This document shows, piece after piece, positions 9,791 to 41,255 of a stretch of 41,479 nt of DNA (position 1 is the stretch's first letter; each line of letters opens with the position of its first letter). The position numbers and the translations under genes were made by a program. Source of the DNA: Chiloscyllium plagiosum (taxonomy: Eukaryota); contig NC_057752.1 of assembly GCF_004010195.1 (NCBI RefSeq), forward strand, positions 8,581,187-8,622,665, in the 5' to 3' direction. The notes under the pieces were generated by a model. That model ran no database searches, was not told the DNA's origin, and was given only the letters and a program-made list of their open reading frames with translations.

Positions 9791-10750
9791 ACATTTGGAA
9801 AACAGTGAATGTGACTCCACTGTTCAAGAAAAGGTGGAGATAGAAAGTTGGCAGCTATTGGCCAATTAATTTACTATCTGTCATCGAGAAAATTCTGGAA
9901 TCTATTAAGGAGGTCGCAGTGAAGCACTTCTCAATGAGGAAGTAACAAACAATGTGGATAAAAATGGAATCTTTGGATGTGCTATCCTTAGATTTCCAGA
10001 AGATATCTGACAATATACCACATCAAAGGTTATTATGCAAAATAAAGACTCATGCTGTAACGGGTAACATGTCAGCAGAGCATAACTAATAAGAAAAAGA
10101 GAGTAAATATAATTGAGTTTCTTTCAGGTTGGCAAGATGTGATGCGTGGAGTGCCACAGGGATCAGTGCTGGGGCCTCAACTACTTATAATTTATCTCAA
10201 TAACTTAGGTGAAGGGACTGAAAGATGGTAGCTGAATTTCCTGGTGACACAAAGATATGACAGAAGGTAACCTATGAAGAAGACATAAAGACTCTGCAAA
10301 GGGATATTTTGAGTGGAGTAAAATTGTGAGGTGGAATACAAAATGGATAAATTTGGCAAGAAAATTAGAAAAACAACACACTATTTAAATGGAGAGACTG
10401 CAAAGACCCAAGGTACAGAAGGATCTGGATGTCCTTGTTTATGAACCACAAAAATGTTGTATAAATACAGAAAGTGTTTAAAATGGCAAATGGAATTTGA
10501 CTTTTGTTGTGAGGAGAAAGGAGTATAAAAGGAGGAAGTTTTGCTACAGTTGTATTGATAAGAGGGCATTGGTGAGACCACACCTAGAGTCCTGTGCACA
10601 GTTTTTGGCCTCCTTATTTATGGAGGAATAGAAATTCAGATAAGGTTCACTTGAATGATACCTTACCTTCGGGAGTGGCCGTATGAAGAAAGGTTGCACA
10701 GACTGGACCTGTAACCACTGGAGTTTAGGAGGGAGAGAGGTGATCTTACT

Positions 10751-10993
10751 AGAGGCATGGCACTCATCCACTGATTCAATCAACAAGCACATCGACCTGG
10801 ACCCAATATACAGGCCACTGCAGCGGACAGCTGGAACTGACAACCGGAAGCGGCAGATTCAAACCACTACAAATGCCGGAGGAAGGATCACAGAAGCGCT
10901 TCACAGGAGGCTCCCAAGCACAGAGGATGTCACCTAGACAGGGGACGAAACATCTGCAACACAAATTCCCAGCTCGACGAACAGAACCACAAC
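10751..10993 (+). mobile_element. Penelope-like element 3' fragment (GIY-YIG C-terminus plus decayed hammerhead)
   Basis: LEAWHSSTDSINKHIDLDPIY; hammerhead-like CAGAGGA-TGTCACC...GGGGAC-GAAACATC at 10921-10954; 13-bp TSD AGGTGATCTTACT (10738-10750, 10994-11006). Confidence 0.8.
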
Positions 10994-11236
10994 AGGTGAT
11001 CTTACTGTAACATGCAAAATCCTGAATGGCCTTCACAGAATGGATATTAAAAGTATACTTAACCTGGTGTGGAGTCTTCTCCTCATTAGTAATTCTGTGG
11101 TCGCGTGAGGAGTGGTTCTATAATCAAACAGGAACCTGGACACTTTGGGAGAGATTAGAACCTGAGGCACAGTTGAAAAACAAAATGGCTCTCATTTCAG
11201 CTCGGTGGGAAGAACATTTTTCTCTCAGATGGTCTT

Positions 11237-14385: not shown

Positions 14386-17131
14386 TTACTGGGAGTCTGC
14401 ATATTGCAAAAGATGCTCACAATTTTTCAAGTGTCGTCCACGTGTTTGACGAATTAACTCTCTGCACATCCAACCGCTTTCAATAGGCATCCACAATGAC
14501 TAAGAACCTTAAGTCCATGAAAGGACCTTCATAGTCGATGAGTAACCGAGTCCAGAGTTGTCCAGTAATTCCCACGAATGTGGGAGAGCTGCTGGCAGTA
14601 ATGTTTGCCCTTTGTTGGCACTCTGGGCACTGCTCCACCAATGCGGCTATGTTAGCATCCATCCTAGCCACCCGATATAACGTCTCACAACATCTTCATT
14701 TCGGACACCCCTGAATGACCCCGGTGGTGTTCAGTCAGTATCTGGCAGCTACCTTTGCGAAGGACAATCACTCTTGCTCCACATAATAATGTGCCACCCT
14801 TCATGCTGATCTGGTCTCACCAGATCCAGAAAAGTTTCATTTCTGGTTGTGACGGCCCTTTTGTTTCCCTCATTACAACCAGCTGTTTCAGTTTTGCCAG
14901 GACTGGATCTTTTTGCATCCACAGTCGGATATTGTCAGTGGTGACCGGAAGGGTGACCAGGAAATCTAAAACCATGACGGACTGTTCCAGTGTTGGCATC
15001 CCTGGTTGTGCATCTGCCAATGGGAGGTGGCTCAATGCATCTGCATGCGCTACTTGTCCTCCCAGACGGTGTTCCAAGTTATAATTGTACTCACTTAGAA
15101 TGAGACCCCACCACTGAATGTGACCTGAAGCTATTGGCAGTACAACCATGTCCCCTTTGAGTAGCCCTAACGGGGGTTGTGGTCTGTTATTATTATAAAT
15201 TTATGTCTGTAAAGATATTGGTGGAACTTTCTCACACCAAAGATGACCGCTCAATCTTCCTTCTCTATCTGGGCATATCTTCTTTCAGCAACAGCTAAAG
15301 TCCAAGAAGCATATGCTATTAGACGTTCCTTTCTGCTGGGCCACAAGCGAACCAACACTACCCTGATGCTGCATGGAGAGGCATTGCATATGAATACCAG
15401 ATCTTGCTTGGGATTGTAGTGGGAAAAACCTTAGACAGTGATAGCTACTTCTTCACTTCCCTAAAGGCTACATCTTGGTTACGAGATAATTTCCAAGGCT
15501 GGCCCTTTTTCAATAGCAGACATAAGGATGCCAGCTTGGAGGATGTATGAATTTTCCATAATAATTCACCAACCCAAGGAAAGGTCTAAGCTCTGGTACA
15601 GACGGGGGGGCCGGGGCACCTTTGATTGCCTTAATGTCATCTTCCAACAGGTATAACACAGTCTTGTTGACTCTATAGACCAAGTAGGTCACTTGGGGTG
15701 TCTGGAGCATACATTTTGCCTTTCTAAGGCGTACGGCCACCTTGGAGAAACATCTAAGGACTATGACCAACTTCTCTAAATGTCTAAATGCTCTTTATTA
15801 GTCTTCCCAGTTATTAGCACATCATCCAGATAAATGGTAACCTGGGGTGGACCTTGTAAAATGTTCTCCATCGTCCACTGAAAATGGCACAGGCTGACGA
15901 TACCCCAAATGGCAGTCTCGTATATTGGTACAAACTCATATGGGTATTCATTGTAGCATACATCTGGTAATCCTCATCTATCCACAATTGCAGATATGCC
16001 TGGCTCATGTCCAGCTTCGTGAAGGACAGTCTCCTGGCCAGCTTTGGCTATAAGTTCTCCATGTGAGGGACTGGGTATTTATCCAGCTGCAAGAAATGGT
16101 TTACCATTTGTTTAAAATCCCTACAAAGACAAACCGACCTGTTGGGCTTCACAATCGGTACAACCAGTGTTGCCCATTCCACAAACTGGATTGGTTTGAT
16201 GATTCCTTCACTTTCCAGCCTCCTGATTTCTGACTCTACTTTTGCCCATCAGGCAAGTGGCACTGGGTGAGCTTTGCAGACTTGTGGAAGTGCAAGGTGG
16301 TCTTGGCTCCTTTGATAGTCCCTAGGCATTCCTGAAAAACCTTTGTGTATTTAATTAGGAGTTCACTCAGGCAGCCATTTTCTAATCAAAACATGTTGGG
16401 CCAATCAAGGTGAATCTTTCTCAACCAATTCTGCTGCATCCAGCCTGGGTCTGAGCCTTTTACTACAATCAGTGGGAACTGAGCCAACTGCTTCTCATAA
16501 AGGGACCAGAACCAAAGTTGTATCCTTAATCTATAAAGGTTTTCCGGTATAGGTTCTCAGGCTGACCAAGGTCTTAACGCAAACTTAAGGGTTGGAGTCC
16601 AGAGTGAATTTTGTTAAAGACTGGTTCTGAAATCACTGATACAGCTGCACCAGTATCAACCTCCATTTGAACTGGGTGACCATTTAACCAGGTGTGTATT
16701 TTGATTGGTTCTGATTTAGATGTTGCAATTTTACTGTTCCAAACCAGATGTAGGTGGGCTTTCCAGGGTGTGCACTGTCCTGGATACTGGCCTATGTGTT
16801 CTCTTACTCAATTCAGGTCCAGTGGGACTCCTTTGCTGTCTTGAGTCTACACTGGCAGAAACTCCTTCTGGTCTGGATCCTGGAGAAAACGTTAACCACT
16901 TGGCTGATGCTTGGATTTGTTTTGGGGTTTTGCTGTGGGCTGACCTAGAGTCCCTCTGTTCAGGATATGTCCTGAGTGAGGCTATGTGATTGCTTATACT
17001 CAACTGGTGTTTCCCAAGTTCAGTTGCACTGGTGAGGGTGCCCACTTCTACTGGAATACCCTGTCACTCATCAGCTCCACTTGCCACATTTTCTCATGAC
17101 AAAGGCAATTGTACTGCCTGTATGAAGTCCA

Positions 17132-18162
17132 AAATCACCCAACACCAGGTTATAGTCCAACAGGTTTATTTGGAAGCACTAGCTTTCGGAGTGCTGCTCC
17201 TTCATCAGGTGGTTGTAGAGTATAAGATCATAGGACACAGAATTTATAGCAAACATTTACAGTGTGATGCAACTGAAATCATATATTGAAAAAGACCTGG
17301 ACTGTTTGTTCAGTCTCTCATCTTTTAAAATGACCATGTTGGTTTTAGTTCTTTCATATGTAAATCCCAGAACTTAAAGTTACATTCTAAAGTGAACTTT
17401 AATTTGAGGTGCCATGTTGGCCCAGATAATGCATTGAAGGTGTGAGGCTGTCTGTGCCCAAATGTTCAGACTGATTCTAATCTAAAAAAGTGATTTACAG
17501 AACCTTACATGGATTCATGCAATTTTTGAGCCACATAAAATGTAATTATACAAGTACAAATTCACCCCACAAACTTATATATGTGTGTGTGCATGTGGGT
17601 GTGTACGTGTGGTGGTAGTAGATGAACCCAAGGTCCCAGTTGAGGCCATCCCCCATGGGTATTGAACTTGGGGTGAATCTGTACTTGTAGAATTACATTT
17701 TATTTTGCTCAAAAACTGCATGAATCCATGTAAGGTTCTGTAAATCCCTTTTCTGGATTAGAATCAGTCTGAACATTGGGGCACAGACAGCCTCACACAG
17801 GGAGCTAACACCTTCAATGCATTATCTGGACCGACATGGCACCTATTGTTAAAGTTCACTTGAGAATGTAACTTTAAGTTCTGGGATTTACATATGAAAG
17901 AACTGAAACCAACATTGTCATTCTAAAAGATGAGAGACTTAACAAACAATCCAGATCTTTTTCAAGATATAATTTCAGTTGCATCACACTGTAAACTTTT
18001 GCTATAAATTCTGTGTCCTACGATCCTATGCTCCACAACCACCTGATGAAGGAGCAGTGCTCCAAAAGCTATTGCTTTCAAATAACCCTGTTGGACTATA
18101 ACTTGGTGTTGAGTGATTTTTATCTTTGAATACCCTAGTCCAACACCGGCACCTCCAAATCA
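17132..18162. mobile_element. Fold-back Penelope-like insertion (arms 17132-17569 and 17669-18120) in Gypsy gag
   Basis: Inverted arms of about 440-450 bp with a hammerhead motif in each; 13-bp TSD TGTATGAAGTCCA (17119-17131, 18163-18175). Confidence 0.82.
17174..17214 (-). ncRNA. Minimal type I hammerhead ribozyme motif (core intact)
   Basis: AACCAC-CUGAUGA-A-GGAG(CAGCA)CUCC-GAAAGCUA^-GUGCUU: helix I CAC/GUG, helix II GGAG/CUCC, palindromic AGCU helix III, CUA cleavage triplet. Confidence 0.7.
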
Positions 18163-18220
18163 TGTATGAAGTCCAGTTATGCTTCAGCCAGTAAGCGCTT
18201 TTGCATGGTTACATCATTAA

Positions 18221-20570: not shown

Positions 20571-20721
20571 CTTGAGGCATTTCATTATATTAAAGATGTC
20601 ATACAACAAAAACAGTTTATATTTGTAAGTGTAAATCAAGGGCCCAGGACACACATTTAGCCTGCTCTTCAGTGAGGATGGGATACCTAAACAGCTGACC
20701 TGCCAAGCAAATGTATTGGGT

Positions 20722-20942
20722 CTGGATGTAGGTTTGCTTGTTGAGCTGGAAGGTTTATTTTCAGATGTTTCATCACCATACTGGTAACATCTTCAGTGAG
20801 CCTCCGGACGAAGCTTCACCGGAGGTTCACTGAAGATGTTACCTAGTATGGTGATGAAACGTCTGAAAACGAACATTCCAGCTCAGCGAGCAAACCTACA
20901 TCCAGAGCCTCAACTTGAGCTACAAATCTTCTCAAACTCGCT
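20722..20942. mobile_element. 221-bp non-coding palindromic PLE-derived element with a hammerhead motif on each strand
   Basis: Arms 20721-20807 and 20819-20906; 13-bp TSD AAATGTATTGGGT (20709-20721, 20943-20955). Confidence 0.85.
20826..20867 (+). ncRNA. Minimal type I hammerhead ribozyme motif (core intact)
   Basis: UUCA-CUGAAGA-U-GUUACC(UAGUAU)GGUGAU-GAAACGUC^-UGAA: 4-bp helix I, 6-bp helix II (2 GU pairs), palindromic ACGU helix III, GUC triplet. Confidence 0.75.
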
Positions 20943-21054
20943 AAATGTATTGGGTTCCTAGCAAGGTCACCGCATACAAATTTTAAAAAATCTTTCCTTC
21001 ATGGGCCTGCTCACCCTTAGAAACTTTCATTGTAAAACCTTTCCCAACTTACCA

Positions 21055-28129: not shown

Positions 28130-29075
28130 AAATCTTTGCATCTTGACATCAGCACAATAGCAGTTTATTGCGAAAACCAACATTTACACTGTGTTAGAGG
28201 AGAGCGCTAATTGGTTGGCAAGTGGACTCTGTTTGGTAGAGGCTTTTCCATAGACAGTGCCTCAGTTAATGATGATTAGCTGTTAATTGTCAGGCTTTTT
28301 CTACATTTTAGGTCAGGCAGATTGACTCTAATTGGTCAAGGCATTGCACTGATAAATGGCCAACAAATAACTGTCACCTATTTTCATGAATTGAAACTGG
28401 CATGATGTGTGCATGTTCTCTTCGTGTGCAAGTCCCCTGTTTATTAATATACATAGCTTCCAGTACATGCAAGTGCACCACATCATGAGCCTACTGACAA
28501 TCCTGAAGTGGTTGTCAGTGTAATTCTTCGTACACTCATGATTACCCAGCAAATGCATTGCAGAATGTTGGACATCATGTTGCAAGGCTAAGCTGGTGGG
28601 CTACAGTCGGTACCTTGATTGTTGTAAACAGCCAAACTGATATGATTGCCACTAAAAGAATGCTGCCAACAAGCCTAAAAGATGCGCTGCCTATCACATA
28701 AATGAGTAATGTGGTATATGAGTTTCAATGCCAGTGTGATGCCAAGTATGTAGGCCACACATCCCAATGGCTAGCAGATTGCATGAAACACCTTATCTCT
28801 TCAGCTGTTCACAACAAGCAAGGTACTGACCATACCCAACCAGCCCATGCTTGTAAATCTTGCAACACGGTGACCAACACTGCATTCGATTCCACAGTTG
28901 GACAACATTTACTGGGCAATCCTGAATGTACAACAAGCAACACTGACAATGAATTAGGATCGTCAGTTGGGCTTGCAGTGTGGTGCACTTGTGTGTATTG
29001 GAAGTTACATATATTAATACAGAGGGTCTTGTTTGTTGCAGACAGTAAGATCATATAAATACACTGCATCTGTGT
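28130..29075. mobile_element. Penelope-like GIY-YIG remnant in inverted arrangement (28130-28585 -, 28590-29075 +)
   Basis: Plus: NVVYEFQCQCDAKYVGHTSQWL (GIY-YIG) ... QHLLGNPEC. Minus: HLLGNHECTKNYTDN. Confidence 0.78.
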
Positions 29076-30579: not shown

Positions 30580-30740
30580 CTGCAATCTCCTGAATGCTGT
30601 TTGCACGCATGTCCAATAAGACAGTACCATTAATGATACAACTTCGTAGCTCAAACAGGCTATGTAACGACAGTGTGGCAACATATGGTTTACTCCAACG
30701 GTCTCCACCATCCTCAACGTCTTCCTCAAACTTCAACCAC
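30580..30740 (-). CDS. SLC4A8: Next internal coding exon (161 bp) of the same SLC4 gene
   Basis: Encodes (R)[53 protein letters not shown]. Acceptor tttggcAG at 30742-30741 and donor GTATGT at 30579. Phase-compatible with the upstream exon (AG|G = Arg, giving ETARWLKFEE). Confidence 0.85.
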
Positions 30741-31314
30741 CTGCCAAACATTTAATTTTAAAAAATATCACAGAAACCTCTTCCAATCTGTTAATCACCA
30801 GAAAGTTAGTGCTAAAGACTAGGCTAGCGTGGACAGTGCAGACCGAGAGGCTGAAAGAGGTTTGAACAGATTAGGAGAGTCAACTGAACCCAAAGATGTC
30901 ACTATTGCCTTGTTGTAACTCATGTTATTTTTCAACATGTATACACTTGTCTTTGTTTTGGGAGTGGCTTTTCTTCTGTGCTTGATCTTGTAATTGTTAC
31001 AGATTCTAATAACAGACATGGTTAGTGTCCCCCCATGTGGTTATTGCATAATCGTATTTACATTGATGGATTGATGAAGTGATCACAAGTCTACTGACTG
31101 ATAAGAGTTCATAATTTGAGGTAATGAACTTAATCATGCATTACAATAAGTCTGTGAAAGCTGTTCTGGACAGCTGATTTGAGAGAGGTGAGCGAGGTTT
31201 CTGTACGGTAAACCTGTTAGTGATTGTTTCTGGAATTTGCACACCATCTAAAGCCTCATTGTGTCAATTTCCAGTATTTCTTCATGCTGACAAACTTGCA
31301 AACAATTCACACAC

Positions 31315-31450
31315 CTGGCAGTCTCCTTCCACTCAGCATCTTCACCCCCCCGTACGCAGATTTCATCAAGTTCAGTGAAAAGCTCATGCGGAACATGCTC
31401 ATCATCATCCTCAGTTCCCAAAATGAACTGTACTCGCTGGGAAGGGGTGT
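31315..31450 (-). CDS. SLC4A8: Internal coding exon (136 bp) of an SLC4 Na+-coupled bicarbonate transporter, N-terminal cytoplasmic domain; best match SLC4A8
   Basis: Encodes (D)TPSQRVQFILGTEDDDEHVPHELFTELDEICVRGGEDAEWKETA(R). Acceptor ctcctttcAG at 31452-31451 and donor GTgtgt at 31314. HVPHELFTELDEIC and the shorter acidic run fit SLC4A8 better than SLC4A7/A10 as I recall them. Family call is strong, paralog call moderate. Confidence 0.85.
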
Positions 31451-36175: not shown

Positions 36176-36380
36176 TTTTTTTTATTTATTCATTTTTGTA
36201 GGATGTGGGCATCACTGGCTGGCCAGCATTTATTGCCCATCCCTAGTTGCTCCCTTGGGAAGATGGTGGTGAGTTGCCTTCTTGAACTGCTGCAGTTTCC
36301 ACTTGCTGTGGGTTGACCCACAATGCCCTTAGGGAGGGAATTCCAGGATTTTGACCCAGCGACACTGAAGGTGTGGTGAT
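36176..36380 (-). mobile_element. 3'-end fragment of the same LINE family inserted antisense into its relative
   Basis: FSVAGSKSWNSLP on minus, mirrored on plus at about 36685-36725. Confidence 0.7.
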
Positions 36381-38092
36381 TCTGCATGAGTGCAGCTCCA
36401 ACGATACTCAAGAAGCTTGACACCATCCAACTTAAAGCAACCATTTTGGGTTGGCACCACACATCCACAAAATTCATTCTCTCCACTACTGCTACTCAAT
36501 CACAGCAGTACGTACCACCTACAAGATGCATTGAAGAAATTCACAAAGTCTCCATCAACAGCACCTTCTAAACCTGCAACCACTACCGACTAAAATGATA
36601 AGGGTAACAGATACATGGGAATACCTCAACTTTCAAGTTCCTTGGCAGCCCATTTACCATCTGACTTGAAAATATATTGCCATACCTTCAGTGTCGCTGG
36701 GTCAAAATCCTGGAACTCCCTCCCTGACAGCATAGTAGGTGTACCTGTATCAAATGGCGTGCAGTGGTTCAAAAAAGTGGTTCACCAGCATCCACTTCAG
36801 GTCAATAAACTCTGGCCCAGCCAGCAAAGTCCACATACCTGAATGAACTTTTTAAAAATGCTGAGTTCATGTTTAAAAGTGTGGGATAAAACATGCACAG
36901 CAAATACACAAAAGAAGTAATTAAGAATTACCTTTGCGCAACCCCTTATTGTTTACTGTATGTGCTTGTTTACTTATTGTGCTCCTAAGTGAAGCATATC
37001 CTCAGTGATTACAGCTAGAGAGGTGAAAGGCTCTTAAACTTCCATATAGGACACTTCAGATAGCTGTGGGGGGCAAGCCAGCAACTCTGGGCCATAAGAG
37101 CTTAACCAAAGAAATTCTGTCTGGGTTGGGACAATGTGGCCTAGCTGGCTGTGTTACACTGGAGAATTTAAGTGGCTGGCAAGGGAATTGGCATGTATAT
37201 TCATAAGGAAGGGCAGCAAGTGCTTTTCCCAGGAATCCAAGCCACTCTTCCAGGATTCCATCTTGGCAGTACTATGACTTTGTTTAAGTACATATGAATA
37301 ATATAATATTCTGAAAGGCCTGGTCAATACTAGCACCCAGGGCCCATAAGAAAGTCATCTGAGCTTCCATTGCAGGAACAAGATTTTCAATGGTAGCTGT
37401 CCTAGCTATCAGCACAGACTCCATCATGATACCAGTCTTGAGAATGTCAGATCAGGTCACACAGAATAGTGGTAATCTCACATTCAGCACCTGAAATGAA
37501 AGGATTAGTTTTTAGCTTGAGGGATAGCAGAGAGGCAAATGGCTGCTAGTAGCAGTTGCCAGTATGTCATGCAGAGTACGTACGGTAAGTTGGAAGCATG
37601 ATGCCTCCTCTACCGTGGCCATGGCTATCTTCCTACCCACAGTGACCAGCACATTTTGTTTCATCAGGGAGAGCATATGCTAATGGACCCAGCCTCCTCC
37701 TGTTATAGCTTCCTTTCAAGTTATGTATGACTTTCTCCTGCAAGAAATAGATCTTTGTGAGGTATTTCATGTATGTGCTGTCATAATTGAATGGTTTATA
37801 TGTAGTGTGAGGCGTGAAACATAGAGTTATAATCATAGTGACAGCAACATGTGTGGATTATGAGTGAGAGATGATGGCAATAGAGTGAAGTGTGGTGCAG
37901 TGATTGTAGGAAAGTGAAGGGAAACAGTGGAGGAGCGAATTGAGTAGAGAGACTACGTATGGTACAGCTGGGAGGAGACCATTATTGAGGTGACCTTTAA
38001 GAATATTTCATAGCGATTCTGATGGAGGTTATTGAGTTTATTTCAAGACTGCAGCCATTTCCTGGTGATAGGGGTTGCATCAAAAACTTTGA

Positions 38093-40199: not shown

Positions 40200-41255
40200 G
40201 TCACTCCCACAAGGTTAAACAAACTTTCTGCATTTATCCTATCAGGTACCCTAATAATCTTATATGTTTCAATAAGATCACTTCTCATTCTTCTATTTTC
40301 CACAAGTAAAGGCCTAATCTACTCGGCATCTCCTCATAAGACAGTCCCTCAATAACGAGGATCACTTTCACCCAGGATCAGCCTGGTGGATCTTCTGTGG
40401 ACTGCCTCCAATGTCAGTCTATCTTTCCTTAGATAAGTGGCCTATGACTGTTCACAGTATTCCAGCTGTGATCTGACCAGTGCCTTGTATAGTTTGAGCA
40501 AAATCTCCCTACTTTTATGCTGCATTCCCTTTGAAGTAAAGGCCAACATCCTATTTACCTGCTATTACCTGCTAAACTTGGATGTAAGCTTTTTTGAGAT
40601 TTGTGAATAAAGACTCCCAAATCACTCGGCTCTGTGGCTTTCTGCAGTCTTTCTCTATTTAAATAATATTCAGCTCTTCTATTCTTCCTGCCAAAATGCA
40701 TATCTCTTCACATTTCTTCACTTCATTGCATTTATCAAGTTTTTAGCCATTCATTTAACCTGCCTATATCCTTCTGCAGACTCTGTCATCCTCACCACTC
40801 GCTTTCCCACTCATTTTTGTGTCATCTGTAAACTTGGCTATAGTACATTCACTTTCCTCATCTAAACCATTAATATATGTTGTAAATAATTGTGGACACA
40901 GCGCTGATCCCTGTGGCATACCACTAGTTAAAGGTTACCAGTCTGAAAATGCTCCTCTTATCCCAACTCTGTCTTCTATTAAACAAAAAACTAAAGAACT
41001 ATGGATCTGGAAATCAGAAACAAAAACAGAAATTATTGGAAAAACTCAGCAAGTCTGACAGCATATGTGGAGAGAAAGCAGAGTTAACATTTTGGGTCCA
41101 GTGATGCTGCCACACCTGCTAATTTTTTCAACAATTTCTGTTTTTGTTTCTGTCTGCTATTAGTCAGCTAATCCTCTGCCCATTACTAATACCTTCAACA
41201 CGGTGTACTCTTGTTAAGCAACCTAATGTCTGGTATCTTATCAAATGCCTTCTGA
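40200..41255 (-). mobile_element. Old CR1 RT/3' fragment
   Basis: KAFDKIP, SGMPQGSALCP, KFTDDTK. Confidence 0.8.
40982..41150. mobile_element. Short palindromic PLE-terminus insertion
   Basis: Arms 41015-41064 and 41104-41152; flanking duplication TCTGTCT(T/G)CTATTA. Confidence 0.65.

What the first reader, a model, noticed from the sequence alone, without database searches (positions are those of the whole stretch)
20709..20955. 221-bp palindromic mini-element carrying opposite-strand hammerhead ribozymes, with a perfect 13-bp TSD
Seen: two inverted arms of about 87 bp, an 11-bp spacer, a 36-bp single tail, no ORF and an exact TSD. The plus arm has a complete minimal hammerhead (CUGAAGA, helix II, GAAAC-GUC, helix I UUCA/UGAA). 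The minus arm has the same motif with GUC>AUC (CpG decay). Known: Penelope-like elements carry minimal hammerheads in their terminal repeats, often insert with inverted ends, and loopless helix III forms are thought to cleave as dimers. Inference: this is either an extreme PLE truncation or a member of a non-autonomous, ribozyme-only, retrozyme/MITE-like family. It is the best candidate here for an undescribed system.
Basis: partly seen in the sequence, partly recalled or inferred. Interest (0 to 1): 0.72.

Follow-up and report, generated by a model that had tools for sequence, protein, structure and literature searches.

The report
Truncated, inverted Penelope retrotransposon end
This small mirror-image insert is the cut-short end of a common shark jumping gene (a Penelope-like retrotransposon), laid down twice head to head in a pattern already described for this class, so it is real but ordinary.

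Summary
The structure is real: two head-to-head arms (85/95 identical), a one-sided 36-bp tail and a 13-bp duplication. The "11-bp spacer" is arm sequence; the arms overlap by 2 nt. The arm is the terminus of an autonomous Poseidon-type Penelope-like element (PLE). It matches the C-terminus of a zebra-shark RT/GIY-YIG protein (23/30 aa), and family contigs run upstream into that ORF. In 14-22 thousand contigs per run from three organisms, ends cluster at both of this element's outer ends. Of 15 joints shown (102 listed), 13 are distinct head-to-head junctions, mostly at single-copy depth. Seven of 24 pieces shown cross a junction like this one, so a hotspot or small family is not excluded. Two other inserts in the window share the layout. 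The hammerhead motif is genuine, but folding it costs about 60 kcal/mol inside the hairpin. An inverted copy plus tail plus TSD, and opposite-strand minimal hammerheads, are published PLE features. The likeliest mechanism is priming from both target strands at two RT start sites (inferred). The scan reported similar elements earlier on other pieces of this genome.

The parts
20709..20721 (+). Left copy of the 13-bp target-site duplication (last T ambiguous with the arm)
   Evidence: chance 3 of 20,000 draws
20722..20814 (-). Inverted (minus) arm: 5'-truncated PLE terminal repeat without tail; its outer end equals the family's common tailless end (plus-equivalent 20904-20906)
   Evidence: loose ends
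20760..20799 (-). Decayed minimal type I hammerhead of the minus arm (core 20796-20790, AUC at 20766-20764; self-complementary ACGU lost)
   Evidence: cofold -0.9 against -3.1 kcal/mol
20810..20817 (.). Inversion junction: 8-bp palindrome GAAGCTTC; the arms share the central GC (20813-20814)
   Evidence: sequence, alignment
20813..20906 (+). Plus arm: 5'-truncated PLE terminal repeat; family contigs continue upstream of 20813 into PLE ORF sequence
20814..20846 (+). Last 10 codons and stop of a Poseidon-type polyprotein frame (LHRRFTEDVT*)
   Evidence: P0008; also P0002-P0004 ends
20826..20867 (+). Minimal type I hammerhead motif: helix I, CUGAAGA, extra U, helix II, loopless helix III with ACGU, predicted cut after C20863
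   Evidence: descriptor features from PMC4209133
20836..20942 (+). Frame open from the ATG at the start of helix II: probable first ~36 codons of the PLE ORF
   Evidence: match to Opisthorchis P0006, E 1.4e-4; same ATG position in Poseidon_Ac
20907..20942 (+). One-sided 36-bp PLE 'tail' (the last 54 nt are 67% A+C); ends at the family's common tailed end
20943..20955 (+). Right copy of the 13-bp target-site duplication (first A ambiguous with the element end)

Best explanation
This is a single, dead insertion product of an autonomous endonuclease-bearing Penelope/Poseidon retrotransposon family that is very abundant in orectolobiform (bamboo-shark-like) genomes. Shown: the arm is the family's terminal repeat, both outer ends are the family's two standard 3' ends, and junctions differ between copies. 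Inferred mechanism: the element's GIY-YIG nuclease cut both target strands 13 nt apart. The reverse transcriptase primed from both 3' overhangs, on the top strand at the inner start site (about 20905, no tail) and on the bottom strand at the outer site (about 20943, with tail). Both cDNAs stopped early, 17-18 nt upstream of the hammerhead core, and were joined through a 2-nt GC microhomology. Fill-in gave TSD, inverted arm, arm, tail, TSD. The two hammerheads are passengers of the copied end. A transcript of either strand makes the antisense arm first and folds into a ~90-bp hairpin, so this copy is very unlikely to self-cleave. Confidence is for the identity as a truncated PLE insertion; the two-primer route itself is about 0.6.
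For: Parent link: the plus arm matches residues 353-382 of P0008 (Stegostoma tigrinum) at 23/30 (E 4.6e-14 against the 247-bp element only). P0008 has weak Pfam RVT_1 (E 0.0073) and GIY-YIG (E 0.0027) hits, and 5 and 4 of 6 aligned relatives hit these families. The loose-end consensus before 20813 (147, 151 and 165 contigs in X1, X5, X9) translates by hand to INRKRDITP, the residues just before that match in P0008. A sister PLE end at 10746-10995 is 69% like the arm and follows GIY-YIG-type coding sequence. Two ends: in X1, 512 contigs end with the tail at about 20943, and 281+170+163 end without it at 20904, 20906 and the mirror place 20723, each followed by unrelated flanks. This fits the two RT start sites that define the tail in vitro (PMC11167929). 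Junctions: 13 of 15 joints shown are different head-to-head junctions; 12 of the 14 with X1 depth lie at 14-23, where one copy is about 19. Many start 3' of the hammerhead core. Same layout at 17119-18175 (13-bp TSD, ~490-bp arms) and 40968-41162 (13/14 TSD; cut inside a hammerhead-like motif). Hammerhead fold penalty is 59-63 kcal/mol in the whole element against 4-8 in single arms. PAc cleaves and extends both strands.
Against: Seven of 24 pieces shown cross the centre (3 with 31 or more letters on each side), each with 14-23 other letters, so other loci have a junction at or near this one. Only 15 of 102 joints, 24 of 54,749 pieces and the top six loose ends per run were visible. The empty site was not seen: the left flank had zero depth in all four runs. 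No full-length parent DNA was in hand, and the P0008 domain hits are below Pfam's cut-offs; its predicted structure was unusable (pLDDT 42). No paper found shows two-primer formation of inverted pLTRs; Arkhipova et al. prefer self-priming.
Confidence: 0.88

Rival explanations
1. Same identity (truncated PLE insert), different route: one cDNA folded back at the junction palindrome, or an antisense template self-primed, and copied itself. The inverted arm was then cut or resolved by the endonuclease at the tailless site.
For: An 8-bp palindrome sits at the junction. Arkhipova et al. 2013 read such palindromes as self-priming, and Craig et al. 2021 ascribe the tail to EN-mediated resolution. Both arms start at the same place and share the subfamily state at most variable sites, including T at the 20855/20772 CpG site.
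Against: Any head-to-head join at equal positions makes a palindrome. The arms differ by 1 nt in length next to the junction, and both length forms align gap-free at high depth in the family (tables 3 and 4), which hints at two templates (weak: it could be a later indel). The in vitro data place RT starts at the two ends.
Confidence: 0.3
2. The 221-bp palindrome is itself a non-autonomous element (MITE- or retrozyme-like), copied as a unit by PLE proteins in trans.
For: Seven of 24 pieces shown cross a similar junction in three organisms. pLTRs can act as cis signals in trans (PMC3846280). Hammerhead cleavage is not needed for PAc insertion in vitro. One earlier scan note read a ~130-nt family in this genome as non-autonomous (e1-7789313, unchecked).
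Against: Summed depth at 20818 is about 4% of that at 20848 in all three DNA runs and includes parent-type contigs (rough, since hairpins break contigs). The junctions shown are many and mostly single-copy. The arms share no clear non-CpG derived base among the 40 of 204 variant sites shown. The RT start region would be in dsRNA. No second copy lies in the window.
Confidence: 0.07
3. The palindrome arose after insertion, by a host repair or replication event that duplicated and inverted part of a simple truncated copy.
For: Inverted duplications are a general class of rearrangement (general knowledge); the arms differ at 10 of 95 columns.
Against: One intact TSD encloses both arms. The inverted arm ends exactly at the family's tailless end. 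The layout recurs in two other inserts of the window.
Confidence: 0.03

Closest known systems
Complex insertions of EN+ Penelope-like elements: inverted 5'-truncated copy, one-sided 30-40-bp tail, TSD (Arkhipova et al. 2013, PMC3846280; Craig et al. 2021, PMC8557442; passages seen)
   Same: Head-to-head inverted repeat, overlap or palindrome at the junction, one-sided tail, TSD around the whole unit, first codons of the ORF inside the repeat and tail.
   Different: Here both copies are cut to about 93 bp, with no ORF body. The TSD is 13 bp against the 8-10 bp in the rotifer examples seen.
Poseidon_Ac of the green anole (Frangieh et al. 2024, PMC11167929; parts 1-2 of 4 and passages seen)
   Same: ATG at the start of helix II, GAAACGUC loopless helix III, cut site close to the ATG (26 bp there, after nt 28 here), A/C-rich tail between two ends; outer end at +108 here against RT starts at 111-118 there.
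   Different: Different species and family. Activity was shown in vitro there and not tested here. The paper does not treat inverted copies (one unrelated use of 'inverted', no 'duplication').
Minimal hammerheads of metazoan PLEs (Cervera and De la Pena 2014, PMC4209133; parts 1-2 of 4 seen)
   Same: Long helix II, short helix I, extra base after A9, palindromic 15.2-16.2, no loop 3. Dual motifs about 100-700 bp apart on opposite strands are already reported and tied to truncated PLEs.
   Different: Both arms here have G10.1-U11.1 instead of the conserved G-C; the minus arm has lost the palindrome. Sharks are not mentioned in the parts read.
Non-LTR retrozymes (Cervera and de la Pena 2020, PMC7229834, passages; Li et al. 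2026, bioRxiv 10.64898/2026.07.22.740005, parts 1-2 of 5 and passages)
   Same: Small, non-coding, type I hammerhead, related to PLE terminal repeats, similar size range.
   Different: Retrozymes are head-to-tail tandem units with same-strand hammerheads that release a monomer. This element is head-to-head, with opposite-strand motifs that pair with each other.
L1 twin priming (recalled; three papers seen only as a search listing)
   Same: Second target strand primes a second cDNA, giving an inversion joined by microhomology inside a TSD.
   Different: In L1 the inverted part is upstream sequence. Here it duplicates the same 3' region and starts at a fixed family site.

Membership tests
EN+ Penelope-like element (Penelope/Poseidon), truncated insertion | Terminal repeat contiguous with an RT + C-terminal GIY-YIG ORF in the family | tested here: met
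   P0008 match 23/30; upstream loose-end consensus gives the preceding residues; RVT_1 and GIY-YIG hits, weak and mostly below cut-off. The insert itself holds only the ORF's ends.
EN+ Penelope-like element (Penelope/Poseidon), truncated insertion | Inverted 5'-truncated copy adjacent to the 5' end | tested here: met
EN+ Penelope-like element (Penelope/Poseidon), truncated insertion | 30-40-bp tail on one side; two discrete family 3' ends | tested here: met
   36-bp tail; ends at 20904-20906 and about 20943 in three runs
EN+ Penelope-like element (Penelope/Poseidon), truncated insertion | Target-site duplication confirmed by an empty site | tested here: inconclusive
   The 13-bp direct repeat is present; the left flank had no depth, so no empty site could be seen
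EN+ Penelope-like element (Penelope/Poseidon), truncated insertion | Clade placement by RT phylogeny | not tested
   Poseidon assignment rests on hammerhead/ATG layout and motif likeness; no reference PLE set was available for a tree
Minimal PLE hammerhead (min-HHR) | Core CUGANGA/GAAA/NUH, extra base after A9, helices I and II, palindromic 15.2-16.2 | tested here: met
   Plus arm. The minus arm lacks the palindrome.
Minimal PLE hammerhead (min-HHR) | G10.1-C11.1 pair | tested here: not met
   G-U in both arms; about half of family depth keeps C at 20855, so this is copy decay or a subfamily state
Minimal PLE hammerhead (min-HHR) | Self-cleavage as a dimer | not testable with these tools
   Folding predicts sequestration in this context; no pile-up of RNA ends in the one RNA run laid (table 6), an insensitive test
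Non-LTR retrozyme | Head-to-tail tandem units, each with a same-strand type I hammerhead | tested here: not met
   No tandem array at the locus; motifs lie on opposite strands
Non-LTR retrozyme | Small circular RNA intermediates | not testable with these tools
   Only a polyA single-cell run was laid
MITE-like non-autonomous family | Many copies with the same ends and the same internal junction | tested here: inconclusive
   13 of 15 joints shown are distinct junctions, but 7 of 24 pieces shown cross a similar centre; most rows hidden
MITE-like non-autonomous family | Terminal inverted repeats reaching both ends | tested here: not met
   The 36-bp tail lies outside the inverted arms on one side

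The most novel reading that the evidence does not exclude
Because both cDNAs tend to stop just upstream of the hammerhead, this junction recurs, and some such 221-bp fold-back units are re-transcribed and re-inserted whole by Penelope proteins in trans. That would be a non-autonomous, hairpin-shaped PLE family in sharks that moves without ribozyme cleavage.
Probability: 0.07. Interest if true: 0.55.

Novelty: new member of a known kind. Interest (0 to 1): 0.17.

Why it matters
As a single locus it matters little: it is one of very many decayed PLE ends in this genome. Its value is as a test case. How PLEs make their inverted copies is still open (self-priming versus priming from both target strands). 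Shark genomes hold thousands of short, TSD-bounded inverted inserts from families with diagnostic variants. Comparing the two arms of each insert would show whether they came from one template or two. If intronic, such hairpins are also candidate dsRNA substrates for editing or small RNAs (not shown here).

Tried and rejected
The host genome is not held, so the genome-wide BLAST could not be run; public-run contigs were used instead. Rfam at E up to 1: 6 weak matches, none a hammerhead; the miRNA-family hits are far below gathering scores and reflect the hairpin only. An 18-nt arm pattern gave 1 viral and 45 metagenome loci; none of the 46 extends beyond 37 nt, so all are taken as chance. The 43-aa N-terminal frame found nothing in the word-indexed protein search and one hit in the HMMER search. 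Pfam found nothing on the two short window PLE fragments. PDB sequence search with P0008 gave no meaningful hit. The structure model had pLDDT 42, so no fold search was run. No RNA holder of the stretch was listed. In RNA run X21 only 2 of 391 laid reads were 99% or more alike, so expression of this locus is untested. The empty site could not be seen (no left-flank depth). Look-ups of earlier findings by sequence and by relatives returned nothing. Rejected: miRNA gene, DNA-transposon MITE (asymmetric tail, PLE coding ends), retrozyme (no tandem units), and assembly artefact (arms differ at 10 of 95 columns, 4 CpG-type, and a clean TSD encloses them). Six paper searches showed no description of a palindromic non-autonomous PLE family in sharks; that library lacks most subscription papers and Repbase/Dfam, and supplements were not opened.

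Full report
Observation. The structure is in the sequence. An exact 13-bp direct repeat lies at 20709-20721 and 20943-20955; 3 of 20,000 random draws of comparable stretches shared an exact 13-mer. Between the copies lie 221 bp that fold into one long hairpin (-160.8 kcal/mol, z -22.8, 0 of 200 shuffles as stable). Aligned from the centre, the arms are 85 of 95 columns identical, and 4 of the 10 differences are CpG-type. A 36-bp tail (20907-20942) is on the right only.

Hammerheads. The plus arm has CUGAAGA (20830), an extra U, a 6-pair helix II, GAAAC-GUC without a loop and a short helix I. The pattern occurs once in the window against 0.02 expected. These are the features of the minimal PLE hammerhead of Cervera and De la Pena 2014 (PMC4209133, parts 1-2 of 4 read). 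That paper also reports dual motifs about 100-700 bp apart on opposite strands and ties them to truncated PLEs. Rfam found no hammerhead. Both arms have G10.1-U11.1 where that paper finds a conserved G-C. The fourth helix I pair is private to this copy, since about 90% of family depth has C at 20826. The minus arm has lost the self-complementary ACGU (co-fold -0.9 against -3.1 kcal/mol). Forcing the hammerhead fold costs 62.5 kcal/mol on the plus strand and 59.2 on the minus strand in the whole element, against 8.0 and 4.2 in the single arms. On either strand the antisense arm is transcribed first, so there is no early window for folding (inference from the layout).

Parent element. The arm is the end of an autonomous PLE. 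Frame 20814-20846 reads LHRRFTEDVT*. It and the following codons match residues 353-382 of P0008, a Stegostoma tigrinum protein, at 23 of 30 (E-value against the element only). P0008 has weak RVT_1 and GIY-YIG hits, and of 6 aligned relatives 5 hit RVT_1 and 4 hit GIY-YIG. In one search, 147, 151 and 165 contigs of three DNA runs continue upstream of 20813 with one consensus, which I translated by hand to INRKRDITP; these are the residues just before the match in P0008. A second frame opens at ATG 20836, at the start of helix II, as in the anole element Poseidon_Ac (PMC11167929, parts 1-2 of 4 and passages read). It matches an Opisthorchis protein (E 1.4e-4, the single hit). A sister end at 10746-10995 is 69% like the arm and follows coding sequence 87-92% identical to Chiloscyllium punctatum proteins, one with an RT domain. 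The host is therefore a bamboo-shark-like animal; no genome was held.

Family-wide view (one lay of 20590-21050 at 82% likeness). 17,572, 22,264 and 14,313 contigs were laid from runs of organisms A, B and C. Loose ends with unrelated flanks cluster at two places: about 20943 with the tail (512, 603 and 434 contigs) and 20904/20906 without it (281+170, 325+216, 201+132). The inverted arm of this element ends exactly at the tailless place and the direct arm at the tailed place. Frangieh et al. showed that the tail is the stretch between two RT start sites. Of 102 joints listed, 15 were shown. Thirteen are different head-to-head junctions and two look like direct jumps. Twelve of the 14 with X1 depth are at 14-23, where the single-copy right flank is 19.2; the other two are 40 and 62. 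Many junctions lie 3' of the hammerhead core, and several carry 2-17 extra letters. Against the simple reading: 7 of the 24 pieces shown (of 54,749; the longest are kept, which favours such pieces) cross the centre, 3 of them with 31 or more letters on each side, each with 14-23 other letters. Other loci therefore have a junction at or near this one. Summed depth at 20818 is about 4% of that at 20848 in all three runs; this is a rough ceiling only, since depth is not copy number and hairpins break contigs. The left flank had no depth, so no empty site could be seen. Right-flank pieces in X1 (0 differences) and X5 (2 differences) include 27 letters of the element, short of the tool's 31-letter rule, so sharing of the insertion between organisms A and B is only suggested.

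Internal controls. The window holds two more inserts with this layout. One spans 17119-18175, with an exact 13-bp TSD, arms of about 490 bp, a hammerhead core near each end and a ~42-bp tail. The other spans 40968-41162, with a 13/14 duplication, a ~35-bp tail and a junction inside a decayed hammerhead-like motif. I did not tie these two to PLE proteins. Two further inverted repeats (28435-29026, 36262-36792) showed no convincing TSD.

Mechanism. Shown: family identity, two fixed 3' ends, variable junctions, a TSD around both arms. Known: PAc cleaves and extends both target strands, is predicted to be a dimer, starts RT at two internal sites, and does not need hammerhead cleavage in vitro. Inferred: nicks 13 nt apart leave 3' overhangs; both new strands that start at the TSD copies are antisense to the PLE RNA, so both can be first-strand cDNAs; both stopped 17-18 nt upstream of the core and annealed through GC. 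One hint favours two templates: the arms differ by 1 nt in length beside the junction, and both forms align without a listed gap at high depth in the family (tables 3 and 4; only 40 of 204 variant rows were shown). A later indel at the hairpin tip would explain it too. The rival is self-priming, proposed from junction palindromes by Arkhipova et al. 2013 (PMC3846280, passages read), with the tail made by endonuclease resolution (Craig et al. 2021, PMC8557442, passages read). I put two-primer at about 0.6 and fold-back at about 0.3.

Comparison with known systems. Inverted truncated copy, junction overlap, one-sided 30-40-bp tail and TSD are described as typical of PLE insertions. Non-LTR retrozymes are head-to-tail tandem units (PMC7229834, passages; bioRxiv 10.64898/2026.07.22.740005, parts 1-2 of 5 and passages); no tandem array is present here. 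The element works like, and is, a truncated EN+ PLE insertion; it fails the retrozyme test. Its hammerhead is a min-HHR by layout but fails the G10.1-C11.1 feature, and activity is untested. Six searches found no account of a palindromic non-autonomous PLE family in sharks; Repbase, Dfam, most subscription papers and all supplements were not seen.

Earlier scan notes. After forming my reading I found unchecked notes on other pieces of this genome that reach the same verdict. Some add that 5' ends cluster just upstream of the hammerhead, which would explain recurring junctions; the depth rise from 20818 to 20834 fits this but does not test it. One note reads a ~130-nt family as non-autonomous. 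These notes are not counted as support.

Verdict. A real but ordinary structure: a decayed, very short head-to-head insertion of an abundant shark Poseidon-type PLE. Interest 0.17. The chance that it belongs to a self-propagating hairpin family is about 0.07.

Noticed in passing
window 17119-18175: A ~1-kb insert with the same layout: exact 13-bp TSD, ~490-bp inverted arms, a hammerhead core with an AGCU palindrome at each end, a one-sided ~42-bp tail, and a 13-nt indel between the arms.
   Followed up: partly
window 40968-41162: A small inverted insert of another family with a 13/14 duplication and a ~35-bp tail; the junction falls inside a decayed hammerhead-like motif.
   Followed up: partly
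window 10746-10995: Non-inverted 3' end of a sister Penelope/Poseidon family, with the last ~63 codons of the polyprotein and a decayed hammerhead showing paired changes in helix I relative to the finding.
   Followed up: yes
window 28435-29058: Degenerate inverted repeat over a GIY-YIG-like coding fragment, probably another PLE clade; weak match to P0002 (E 0.007); no TSD found.
   Followed up: partly
window 36262-36792: Inverted repeat of 78-115 bp in an unidentified repeat, with no convincing TSD.
   Followed up: no
window ~30580-31390 (minus strand): Two exons of an SLC4/Band 3 anion-transporter gene (Pfam Band_3_cyto). The element lies about 10 kb downstream in the direction of transcription, probably in an intron; no later exon was found among 69 of 133 minus-strand frames scanned.
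   Followed up: partly
window 20848 and its mirror 20779; also 20760: In RNA run X21, family reads show A>G (sense) at 20848 in 50 of 149 and at the mirror site in 8 of 15 reads on the dominant strand, against about 1-2% of DNA depth. This could be A-to-I editing or an expressed subfamily; many DNA contigs carry the variant too, and no matched DNA was available.
   Followed up: no
window 20718-20941: Family reads in RNA run X21 are strand-biased (about 4-5 to 1 on the plus arm, mirrored on the minus arm), PLE-sense if the second mate reads the RNA strand as is usual for such libraries.
   Followed up: no
window ~14800-16800 (minus strand): Decayed LTR-retrotransposon fragments (protease, RT, RNase H by Pfam).
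   Followed up: no
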